A stretch of DNA of 64,000 nt, from assembly GCA_965235115.1 (NCBI GenBank), contig OZ249438.1:22196001-22260000 (forward strand). Direction: 5' to 3'. Positions 58,143 to 61,100 of this stretch are shown in pieces. Position 1 is the stretch's first letter. Each line of letters opens with the position of its first letter. The DNA comes from Laetmonice hystrix. Its lineage: Eukaryota. Made by a program: the position numbers.

Positions 58143-61100
58143 ATGCTAAAGATAGGGCCCCCAGATGTTAGATAGTTGCCTTGCACTTAAATCGTTAATG
58201 AAGGCTTTACGTGTAATTTACTTGAATCGGGACTCTGATATTTAGTATGTTTCTCTTGCGACCAGTGTGGATATGCCCATGATAACATGGCAGTCATAAC
58301 TAGGGAAAGCGTTGATTGCATGTAGTGCCATAACAGATAATGACACAATGTGAGATGTATATAATGTGTTTTCTGTCTGCCCTTCATACACAGAATCTAC
58401 ATTTCAACCTTCACAAAATAACTTTTCCGGAAACTTGCATTTGTGACTTTAATGTTGCGAACAGATGGAAATCTTTGTAAGTCATGAATATGCAGAACGG
58501 TCAGAAAGAATGCGTTTCACACACAATCAAATACAACTCTGGAAACTATATACCGAAACTTCTGAAATTAAATGTAGGCTCCTATTTGACGTCTACCTTC
58601 ATCTCCTTGGGGTATAATGTAACATAAGTTCTTACACGTATTAACATATAGGAACAATCGATTCATTTAGCCTCATCCTCCCCGGGGGCCATTGCTCCAC
58701 GTATCGCTATGAAAAAGATCCATCATAGTCGTCTCGTTAAGGCGTTTCCGTTGCTCCAGATCATTTTCTTATCGTAAAATTGAACTTCTTGTCGAATTTA
58801 ACGAGAACGAGACGAGGTGGTCAGAGGTACCAATTTATCGTAAAAATATCGTTATAGTCGATTAGTGCGCACCGTTTGTCTTGGGGCAGGCCACATGACT
58901 AACAACATGGAGCGTGTGGAGAACGTCCGTGTGGACGCCCTTGGGCCTTGCTGGAGATACCTGTGTCTGGGTGGACCTGCTTCAACAACTTGTAGATGTA
59001 GATGGAGTAGGATTCCCTCTTCCTCTTCTTGCGCTTCTTGTCGCCCGTGCGGACGGCGTTGGCCTTGCTAGCAGCCTTCTTGGCTCCCTTCGACGCTGGT
59101 TTTGGCGGCATGATGTCAGTGTATCGACTAAGATGCCAGTCGGCGCGTTTTGTTTATATATGGCGTCGTATGCAAATTAGGAGTGAGTTCATCGTGAAAG
59201 GAGCCATTCATGAGTCATCCGCGTTCCGTTGGTGGCGCCACATATTATACCCCGACGCCGTGCCTGTTAGGGAGCAGCTTTGGCGCTGTAGTCGCCGGGC
59301 AGGTTGCCGCCGTCACGTGTGACGCCTAGGCCAATCAGCAGCCATGTATGAACGCGCCGTTTCAGAAATCTAAGCTACTGGCCAGTTACCGGCCCATTTG
59401 ACCAGCAAGATGGCGTCGCTCGCCATGTTACGCGCCATCGGTCGATCTGACCCATCGGCCGATGGGTCAGACCCATCGGTGGATCGGCCAACGGGTCGCC
59501 CATCGACCGATGGGCGACCCATCGGTGGATGCGCGGCGCGCCAGGGTCGCGGCCCATCGGCCAATGGGTCTGACCCATCGGTGGATGGGTGGTTGGTAAA
59601 CCAGGAGACATGGAATGACATGAAAACCTAGAGGAGACAACCTCTCAACCCGAGCCGCAGGCCTCCCTTCAGTCAAGAACTCAGATCACCCAGCCACCTC
59701 CTGTCCAGACCCCACACCCACCTCCTCTCCAGACCTCACACCCACCTCCTGTCCAGACCCCACACCCACCTCCTGTCCAGACCTCACACCCACCTCCTGT
59801 CCAGACCTCACACCCACCTCCTGTCCAGACCCCACACCCACCTCCTGTCCAGACCTCACACCCACCTCTTGCCCAGACCCGACACCCACCTCCTGTCCAG
59901 ACCTCACACCCACCTCCTGTCCAGACCTCACACCCACCTCTCCAGACCTCACACCCACCTCCTGTCCAGACCCGACACCCACCTCCTGTCCAGACCCCAC
60001 ACCCACCTTCTATCCAGACCCCACACCCACCTCCTGTCTAGACCTCACACCCACCTCCTGTCCAGACCTCACACCCACCTACTGCCCAGACCTCACACCC
60101 ACCTCCTGTCCAGACCCCACACCCACCTACTGTCCAGACCTCACACCCACCTACTGCCCAGACCTCACACCCACCTCCTGTTCAGACCCCACACCCACCT
60201 CCTGTCTAGACCTCACACCCACCTCCTGTCCAGACCTCACACCCACCTACTGCCCAGACCTCACACCCACCTCCTGTCCAGACCCCACACCCACCTCCTG
60301 TCCAGACCCCACACCCACCTACTCTCCAGACCTCACACCCACCTCTCCAGACCTCACACCCACCTCCTGTCCAGACCCCACACCCACCTCCTCTCCAGAC
60401 CTCACACCCACCTCTCCAGACCTCACACCCACCTCCTGTCCAGACCCCACACCCACCTTCTCTCCAGACCTCACACCCACCTCCTGTCCAGACCTCACAC
60501 CCACCTCCTGTCCAAACCCTACACCCACCTCCTGTCCAGACTCCACACCCACCTCCTGTCCAGACCTCACACCCACCTCCTCTCCAGACCTCACACCCAC
60601 CTCCTGTCCAGACCTCACACCCACCTCCTGTCCAGACCCTACACCCACCTCCTGTCCAGACTCCACACCCACCTCCTGTCCAGACCTCACACCCACCTCC
60701 TGTCCAGACCTCACACCCACCTCCTGTCCAGACCTCACACCCACCTCCTGTCCAGATCTCACACCTCCTGTCTTAAATCGGTCACCATTGTTGCCATGTT
60801 TGATTACCCCCGGATTTACCCACTGTTAACAATACTCAATTTTTTTCACACACATTTCAAGTTCTGTTAAAGTCTTAAAAGTTAGGGTGCCTACGGCTAA
60901 ACGTTTTTCCTTCATGATAACTAGAGTATAGTCCGTTTTATGTATTGCATCCATGTCTCCTGGTTTACCAACCACCCATCCACCGATGGGTCAGACCCAT
61001 CGGCCTATGGGCCGCGACCCTGGCGCGCGACGCGCATCGACCGATCGACCGATGGCGCGTAACAGCCATAACCCTAGATTTCATAATTTTCATTAATATC

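What the first reader, a model, noticed from the sequence alone, without database searches (positions are those of the whole stretch)
59426..61064. Ginger-like TIR element carrying a 1.08-kb satellite as cargo
Clean TGTTA...TAACA termini, TIRs over 100 bp and a GCCA 4-bp TSD define an intact insertion, about two-thirds of which is a 24-bp array. TG...CA termini with long TIRs and a 4-bp TSD are described for Ginger transposons, whose integrase is Gypsy-like. Non-autonomous members acting as satellite vectors would explain how minisatellites spread in this genome (inference).
Basis: partly seen in the sequence, partly recalled or inferred. Interest (0 to 1): 0.7.

Follow-up and report, generated by a model that had tools for sequence, protein, structure and literature searches.

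The report
Small transposon copy carrying a minisatellite
This is an intact, non-coding cut-and-paste transposon copy with a 45-unit, 24-bp repeat array inside it; that is a known kind of arrangement, and neither its link to Ginger transposons nor any role in spreading repeats is shown.

Summary
Window 59426-61064 (1639 bp) starts TGTTA and ends TAACA. It has unequal inverted arms of 189 and 115 bp and a 4-bp GCCA duplication on each side. A 24-bp array of 45 units (1072 bp) fills 65% of it.

It belongs to a real dispersed family. Twelve unnamed ENA peptides, each reported on one contig, match the arms and the right internal segment. Nine of them run to the same terminus and then continue into unrelated flanks. 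Two relatives are arm-only mini-elements.

The element encodes nothing recognisable, so it is non-autonomous.

The Ginger reading fits on terminus (TGTNR), arm length and duplication length. It fails on target sequence. GCCA is neither Ginger1's CCGG/CCGT nor Ginger2's TATA, and 0 of 9 relatives can carry a Ginger1-type target while 1 of 9 can carry TATA. No integrase-encoding partner could be sought, because no eukaryotic genome DNA was at hand.

The "satellite vector" idea found no support:
- None of the 10 other arrays in the window has flanking inverted repeats.
- The 24-bp unit occurs nowhere else in the window.
- It was not found in the protein libraries in the two reading frames searched.

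Verdict: an ordinary tandem-repeat-bearing MITE-like element, superfamily unresolved, with Ginger2-like the best named guess.

The parts
59422..59425 (.). Left copy of the 4-bp target site duplication, GCCA
   Evidence: the flanks are identical only at length 4.
59426..59614 (+). Left terminal inverted repeat arm (189 bp). It starts TGTTACGCGCC and is built of short CCCATCGG/CCGATGGG palindromes.
   Evidence: pairs I1, I6 and the internal palindromes I7, I9-I11; 6 of the window's 8 CCCATCGG lie in the element; as single-stranded DNA the arm folds at -60.5 kcal/mol, z = -5.3, and 0 of 200 shuffles fold as well.
59439..59514 (+). 76-bp block present in the left arm and absent from the right arm. 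It is bounded by the near-identical 8-mers CGGTCGAT and CGGTGGAT.
   Evidence: Alignment A1. Relatives P0001 and P0002 lack 18 and 34 residues of arm respectively.
59615..59693 (+). Left internal segment (79 bp) between the arm and the array. A weak extension of the inverted repeat runs to about 59630.
59694..60765 (+). 24-bp minisatellite: 45 units (42 of 24 bp, 3 of 21 bp), 17 variants, almost free of CpG (2 CpG in 1072 bp).
60766..60949 (+). Right internal segment (184 bp, 37% GC). It is family sequence shared with relatives.
   Evidence: P0002 residues 23-89 align to 60842-61015 at 62% identity. Best matches of P0154, P0160 and P0162 begin at 60839-60842. P0155 and P0158 carry similar internal residues ahead of the arm (read), though their best matches fall on the left arm.
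60950..61064 (-). Right terminal inverted repeat arm (115 bp), ending TAACA.
61065..61068 (.). Right copy of the 4-bp target site duplication, GCCA

Best explanation
This is one copy of a dispersed family of non-autonomous, MITE-like cut-and-paste DNA transposons.

Shown:
- The copy is intact, with both termini, long palindrome-rich inverted arms and a 4-bp duplication of the target GCCA.
- It has no recognisable coding capacity.
- Relatives on other contigs share the arms, the exact terminus and the right internal segment, then run into unrelated flanks.
- Arm length varies between copies with the number of short palindromic subrepeats.

Inferred:
- The element was moved by a transposase supplied in trans. 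That enzyme would recognise the TGTTACGCGCC end and the repeated CCCATCGG motifs, and would cut the target with a 4-bp stagger.
- Among named superfamilies, the combination of TGTNR end, 4-bp duplication and arms over 100 bp points to an integrase-type (Ginger) enzyme. I put that at about 0.4, with Ginger2-like more likely than Ginger1 because no Ginger1 target is seen.
- The 24-bp array is most simply a repeat inside this copy's internal region that grew by slippage or unequal exchange. On this reading it belongs to this copy or a young sublineage, and is not a family-wide cargo that seeds minisatellites elsewhere.
For: Structure and duplication.

Family: a 62-residue translation of the left arm found 2 ENA peptides among 3 candidates. 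A profile of 4 arm peptides found 12 with E <= 0.1 among 242 candidates, each reported on one contig, with contig lengths all different (13-935 kb). All 12 match only the element within the window (E from 4e-6 to 2e-25, 0 matches outside it). Nine of the 12 reach the terminus and continue into 8 different flanks.

Arm-only forms: P0161 holds a whole 114-nt arm-only element within one open frame. Its flanks are compatible only with a 4-bp or an 8-bp duplication. P0157 looks similar.

No coding capacity: the array ORFs and neighbouring ORFs gave no Pfam family at or above its curated cut-off, and nor did 10 of the relatives.

Array looks private: all 41 unit matches in the window lie in this array. 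None of the 150 listed hits, out of 504, from the representative search carries the unit in any of its six frames. None of 5213 candidates scored E <= 0.1 for the junction-plus-array query.

Ginger signature: definitions taken from passages of PMC2836005.
Against: No transposase link of any kind was tested.

The target sequence fits neither Ginger group: GCCA here, 0 of 9 relatives compatible with a Ginger1-type duplication, and 1 of 9 compatible with TATA.

The 'private array' claim rests on weak negatives:
- Only 2 of the unit's 6 reading frames were used as queries.
- All 12 relatives found were at least 90 residues long, so shorter open frames may not be held in the library.
- None of 10 ORFs from the element region and its left flank is in the protein collection. 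The source genome may therefore be missing from it, and the relatives may come from another assembly or species.
- The order of unit variants gives no significant sign of local block duplication. The longest shared block is 4 units, matched or beaten in 211 of 2000 shuffles. Clustering of rare variants was matched in 423 of 5000 shuffles.

Duplications in the other copies could be judged only from back-translated peptides.
Confidence: 0.6

Rival explanations
1. The element would be a non-autonomous Ginger family member, and such members would carry minisatellites around the genome, which would explain how the genome's arrays spread.
For: The TGTTA terminus fits TGTNR. The 115/189-bp arms fall in the Ginger1 range of 40-270 bp and roughly in the Ginger2 range of 50-180 bp. 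The duplication is 4 bp (definitions). Non-autonomous Ginger members exist: Ginger2-1N1_NV is 252 bp with more than 50 copies, and a few non-autonomous Ginger-1_BF copies are reported (PMC2836005 passages). The array does lie inside the element.
Against: The target sequence does not fit. None of the 10 other arrays in the window has flanking inverted repeats above chance (z from -1.1 to +1.3, against 54 for this one). The unit was not found outside this array. Some relatives are arm-only forms with no array.
Confidence: 0.12
2. The family belongs to another superfamily, named or not yet described, that also makes 4-bp duplications. The TGT...ACA ends would then be a convergent or shared feature. 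An IS481EU-like lineage is one example.
For: IS481EU also has TGT..ACA ends and 4-bp duplications (PMC10045372 passages). The relaxed and mostly A/T-rich flanks of the relatives match neither published Ginger target preference.
Against: IS481EU arms are mostly under 50 bp, and it is reported only from parabasalids. No other named superfamily in the passages I read combines TGT ends, a 4-bp duplication and arms over 100 bp.
Confidence: 0.4
3. The structure is not a transposon insertion at all. It would be a local inverted duplication, or two independent small elements that happen to flank an older array.
For: The arms are themselves palindromic, and arm-only mini-elements exist in the family (P0161, P0157).
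Against: Neither arm carries a second, inner terminus. The two arms form a single inverted pair, with an exact 4-bp duplication directly outside them. The right internal segment next to the array is family sequence shared by several relatives.
Confidence: 0.03

Closest known systems
Ginger2/TDD DNA transposons, including the 252-bp non-autonomous Ginger2-1N1_NV (Bao, Kapitonov and Jurka 2010, PMC2836005; passages read)
   Same: TGTNR terminus, 4-bp duplication, arms of 50-180 bp, and the existence of short non-autonomous derivatives. Most relatives' flanks are A/T-rich, which fits loosely.
   Different: The preferred target RTATAY with a TATA duplication is not seen: CGCCAT here, and TATA is possible in only 1 of 9 relatives. 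No transposase link was tested. No internal minisatellite is mentioned in the passages I read.
Ginger1 DNA transposons (same paper)
   Same: TGTNR terminus, 4-bp duplication, arms of 40-270 bp.
   Different: Ginger1 duplications are CCGG (75%) or CCGT/ACGG (24%). Here the duplication is GCCA, and 0 of 9 relatives can carry one of those. No Gypsy-like integrase partner was found or searchable.
Tandem-repeat-containing MITEs: Donax trunculus MITEs, Xenopus Xstir and miDNA4. I know these only as described in the review PMC12628747 (passages read).
   Same: A short non-coding element with inverted ends and a central array of tandem repeats. Expansion of an internal array within the element is a published model.
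   Different: Those families have many copies sharing the same repeat in variable numbers. Here no second array-bearing copy was found. Those elements belong to other superfamilies or are unclassified.
Helitron/Helentron non-autonomous elements carrying satellite-like arrays in oysters (PMC7492417), and the foldback element Tetris of Drosophila virilis (PMC4079207). For both I saw the search listing and the start of the abstract only.
   Same: A mobile element with conserved ends and a central or arm-borne tandem array. Subrepeat number in the arms varies, as in foldback elements.
   Different: Helitrons use a different transposition chemistry, with no inverted ends and no duplication. In Tetris the tandem repeats build the arms themselves, whereas here the main array is unrelated to the arms.
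IS481EU of parabasalids (PMC10045372; passages read)
   Same: TGT...ACA ends, and 4-bp duplications in some families.
   Different: Arms are mostly under 50 bp. Duplications of 15 and 25 bp also occur. The superfamily is known only from parabasalids.

Membership tests
Ginger1 | 5' end follows TGTNR, with TG...CA termini (PMC2836005) | tested here: met
   TGTTA...TAACA
Ginger1 | Terminal inverted repeats of about 40-270 bp | tested here: met
   Arms of 189 and 115 bp
Ginger1 | 4-bp target site duplication | tested here: met
   GCCA on both sides, and no other length from 2 to 12 matches. Relative P0161 is compatible with 4 or 8 bp only.
Ginger1 | Highly specific target: CCGG (75%) or CCGT/ACGG (24%) | tested here: not met
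   GCCA here. Of 9 relatives that reach the terminus, 0 can have such a first 4 nt. The published figures come from 112 Hydra copies only.
Ginger1 | Autonomous partner with the same ends, encoding a Gypsy-integrase-like transposase (YPYY, H2C2, DDE, GPY/F) | not testable with these tools
   No eukaryotic genome DNA collection was available. Inside the window, 58 ORFs gave no Pfam family at or above its curated cut-off.
Ginger1 or Ginger2 (Repbase rule for non-autonomous elements) | Same duplication length, and terminal positions 1-11 alignable with at most 1 mismatch to a classified element (PMC4455052) | not testable with these tools
Ginger2/TDD | TGTNR end, arms of about 50-180 bp (260-297 in TDD-4/5), 4-bp duplication (5 bp in TDD) | tested here: met
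   The left arm of 189 bp is slightly above the metazoan range.
Ginger2/TDD | Preferred A/T-rich 6-bp target RTATAY | tested here: not met
   The target here is C-GCCA-T. TATA is possible in 1 of 9 relatives. This feature is a preference, not an absolute rule.
Ginger2/TDD | Partner transposase with an H2C2 zinc finger and a DDE core, without GPY/F or YPYY | not testable with these tools
   As for Ginger1.
IS481EU | TGT..ACA (TNT..AYA) ends and duplications of about 4, 15 or 25 bp | tested here: met
   definition.
IS481EU | Arms mostly shorter than 50 bp; host range limited to parabasalids | tested here: not met
   Arms are 115 and 189 bp. The host organism of the window was not identified.
Tandem-repeat-containing MITE (a structural class, not a superfamily) | Short non-coding element with inverted ends, a duplication and an internal tandem array | tested here: met
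   567 bp without the array. No Pfam family at or above its curated cut-off. Array described.
Tandem-repeat-containing MITE (a structural class, not a superfamily) | Many copies sharing the same repeat in variable copy number | tested here: inconclusive
   No second array-bearing copy was found. Only protein libraries and 2 of 6 frames could be searched.

The most novel reading that the evidence does not exclude
The family may be a lineage of integrase-type (Ginger-related) transposons that has lost the strict target choice described for Ginger1 and Ginger2. Its short non-autonomous members would readily grow tandem repeats, both within their arms (48-nt subrepeats in relative P0153) and between them (this 24-bp array). 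That would make them a seed source for new minisatellites in a genome where arrays fill about 13% of this window.
Probability: 0.12. Interest if true: 0.55.

Novelty: new member of a known kind. Interest (0 to 1): 0.3.

Why it matters
A shown link to an integrase-type transposase would add a Ginger-type case to the known list of mobile elements that carry or generate tandem repeats. It would also show that the target choice reported for Ginger elements is not universal.

As things stand, this is a well-preserved example of a known arrangement: a small non-coding transposon with an internal minisatellite. It is useful for annotating repeats in this genome. It is not evidence for how the genome's many minisatellites arose, since the ten other arrays in the window show no such ends.

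Tried and rejected
1. Other copies in the window. The 22-nt terminus, with up to 3 mismatches, hits only the two element ends. blastn of the non-array parts gave 5 weak hits outside the element out of 36, all with E > 0.5. tblastn with the 12 relatives gave 0 matches outside.

2. Inverted repeats around the other 10 arrays. None exceeds shuffles, and no other pair of 30 nt or more that flanks an array turned up.

3. Public DNA. The only open collection holds bacteria and archaea. The 22-nt terminus and a 48-nt double unit gave 0 hits each there.

4. Exact look-up of 10 ORFs from the element region and its left flank: none is in the protein collection.

5. Array ORF against the representative library. 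It gave 504 hits at E <= 0.001, but the 12 I read are other short-period repeats. None of the 150 listed carries the unit, and 2 share a single 6-mer.

6. Junction-plus-array query: none of 5213 candidates scored E <= 0.1.

7. Cluster look-up of 10 relatives: all are singletons with no names or accessions.

8. ESM Atlas with P0154: no usable hit.

9. Rfam and tRNA scans of the window: 0 hits each.

10. Pfam on 58 window ORFs and 10 relatives: nothing at or above a curated cut-off.

11. Tests for block duplication in the array: not significant.

12. The organism was not identified.

13. Literature. Searches of the held library listed no paper that describes a Ginger non-autonomous element carrying a minisatellite. 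The nearest item is an oyster satellite (CgiSat41) labelled DNA/Ginger1 in a table (PMC8268682). Those of PMC2836005 and PMC6839031 may hold duplication lists that bear on how strict the target preference is.

Full report
**1. What is there.**

The stretch 59426-61064 (1639 bp) begins TGTTA and ends TAACA. The outermost 22 nt of the two ends are perfectly complementary. Further in, an 84-nt block is 95% complementary. The 22-mer occurs only at these two places in the 64-kb window, against 0 expected in 100 shuffles.

Directly outside the ends, GCCA is repeated at 59422-59425 and 61065-61068. No other length from 2 to 12 gives a match.

The arms are unequal. The left arm is 189 bp (59426-59614) and the right arm is 115 bp (60950-61064). 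The left arm has an extra 76-bp block just after the first 13 nt. That block is bounded by two near-identical 8-mers, which is the pattern expected for a deletion or slippage between short repeats.

Both arms are made of short palindromes built on CCCATCGG/CCGATGGG. Six of the window's 8 CCCATCGG and all 3 CCGATGGG lie in the element. As a single strand, the left arm folds at -60.5 kcal/mol (z = -5.3).

Between the arms, in order, lie:
- a 79-bp left internal segment;
- a 24-bp array at 59694-60765, with 45 units (42 of 24 bp and 3 of 21 bp) in 17 variants at 91% matches;
- a 184-bp, A/T-richer right internal segment.

The array is 65% of the element.

**2. It is a member of a dispersed family.**

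No second copy lies in the window. No eukaryotic DNA collection was open, so I translated the left arm outward (62 residues) and searched the protein collection. That gave 2 hits among 3 candidates.

A profile of four arm peptides then gave 12 hits with E <= 0.1 among 242 candidates. All 12 are unnamed ENA entries, each reported on one contig, with contig lengths all different, from 13 to 935 kb. The 10 I looked up are all singleton clusters without names. All 12 match only the element within the window (E from 4e-6 to 2e-25).

Nine of the 12 run to the same terminus and then continue into flanks. Eight of those flanks are different. That is the mark of a mobile family with a precise end.

Several relatives also carry the right internal segment. 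Best matches of P0002, P0154, P0160 and P0162 start at 60839-60842. P0155 and P0158 show similar internal residues ahead of the arm (read).

Arm length differs between copies:
- P0001 lacks 18 residues of arm, and P0002 lacks 34.
- P0153 has three tandem 16-residue subrepeats.
- P0161 contains a whole 114-nt arm-only element within one open frame, and P0157 looks similar.

**3. Coding capacity.**

No ORF in or next to the element matches a Pfam family at or above its curated cut-off. The long open frames through the array exist only because the period is a multiple of three.

None of the 58 window ORFs scanned showed a family at or above cut-off either. That set comprised 48 stop-to-stop frames of 107 residues or more outside the arrays, 8 further frames outside the arrays, and two array ORFs. 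Shorter exons were not scanned. The element is therefore non-autonomous, and no partner lies in the window.

**4. Is it Ginger?**

From passages of Bao et al. 2010 (PMC2836005), the two groups are defined as follows:
- Ginger1: TGTNR ends, arms of 40-270 bp, and 4-bp duplications that are CCGG in 75% and CCGT/ACGG in 24% of 112 Hydra copies.
- Ginger2: TGTNR ends, arms of about 50-180 bp, 4-bp duplications, and a preference for RTATAY.

The element meets the terminus, arm-length and duplication-length features. It does not meet the target feature, since its duplication is GCCA within CGCCAT.

For the 9 relatives that reach the terminus, I listed every first 4 nt allowed by the two flank residues. 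A Ginger1-type duplication is possible in 0 of 9, and TATA in 1 of 9. Most flanks are A/T-rich, which leans loosely towards Ginger2. P0161's two flanks are compatible only with a duplication of 4 or 8 bp.

Repbase classifies non-autonomous elements by duplication length together with alignment of terminal positions 1-11 (PMC4455052). Neither that test nor the search for an integrase-encoding partner could be done here.

IS481EU shares the ends and the 4-bp duplication. However, it has short arms and is known only from parabasalids (PMC10045372). GingerRoot/IS3EU make 6-bp duplications (PMC6839031; PMC10045372).

My estimate is about 0.4 that the mobilising enzyme is integrase-type, with Ginger2-like more likely than Ginger1.

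**5. Is the array a cargo that spreads?**

Physically, the array does lie inside the element. Beyond that, the tests give no support:
- All 41 matches to the unit in the window lie in this array.
- The 10 other arrays of the window have no flanking inverted repeats above chance (z from -1.1 to +1.3). The same test gives z = 54 for this array.
- The 333-residue array ORF found 504 low-complexity hits in the representative library. None of the 150 listed carries the unit in any of its six frames, and none reaches the element-specific tail.
- A query joining 20 residues of the right internal segment to ten units, in another frame, found nothing among 5213 candidates.

These negatives are weak, for three reasons. 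Only 2 of the 6 frames were used as queries. All 12 relatives found were at least 90 residues long, so shorter open frames may be missing from the library. And none of 10 ORFs from the element region and its left flank is in the collection, so the source genome may be missing from it too.

The order of unit variants gives no significant sign of block duplication. Growth in place is therefore the simplest reading, not a shown one.

**6. Comparison with the literature, and novelty.**

Tandem arrays inside non-autonomous elements are well described. Examples include MITEs of Donax and Xenopus and Helitron/Helentron elements (review PMC12628747, passages), and Tetris and the oyster Helentrons (search listings and abstract starts only). 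Three searches of the held library listed no paper on a Ginger-type non-autonomous element carrying a minisatellite.

I file this as a new member of a known kind.

**7. What stayed unchecked.**

- Copies, duplications and cargo genome-wide at the DNA level.
- The autonomous partner.
- Comparison with the Repbase and Dfam libraries.
- The organism.
- The supplements of the papers cited.
- The two N runs in the window, which were left alone.

Noticed in passing
window 10222-60765 (11 arrays): The window is unusually rich in minisatellites. Eleven arrays with periods of 21-75 bp cover 8216 bp, or 12.8% of the window. Examples are 46185-48995 (49 bp x 58), 30021-31303 (75 bp x 17), 43650-44441 (57 bp x 14) and 19271-19939 (35 bp x 19). 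All have different units.
   Followed up: partly
window 46001-48000: The region holding the 49-bp array has a very strong strand asymmetry, with GC skew +0.69 at 33% GC.
   Followed up: no
window 59439-59514: The 76-bp difference between the two arms is bounded by near-identical 8-mers. This suggests a deletion or slippage between the short repeats that make up the arms.
   Followed up: partly
relatives P0002 and P0154 (ENA, unnamed): These two relatives share the same four flank residues and stop after the terminus, but differ in arm length by about 19 residues. They could be the same locus in two assemblies or haplotypes, or a duplicated locus. Either way, arm length looks unstable.
   Followed up: no
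relatives P0161, P0157 and P0153 (ENA, unnamed): P0161 is an arm-only mini-element of 114 nt, and P0157 is a similar one. P0153's arm holds three tandem 16-residue (48-nt) subrepeats.
   Followed up: partly
window 26727-27053 (+): A sub-threshold Pfam match to DUF4074 (19.8 bits against a cut-off of 22.3, E = 8e-4). No homeobox motif was found anywhere in the window, so I take it for chance.
   Followed up: partly
window 33532-33616, 22356-22432, 61668-61736, 58106-58139: Long simple repeats: (CAG)28, (TCC)25, (TC)34 and (CT)17.
   Followed up: no
window 7702-7940 and 17578-17761: Two runs of N. They were left as they are.
   Followed up: no
whole window: CpG observed/expected is 0.81 at 47.5% GC. 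The two arms show no CpG depletion (1.09 and 1.31), whereas the array has only 2 CpG in 1072 bp. There are no tRNA genes and no Rfam matches.
   Followed up: no
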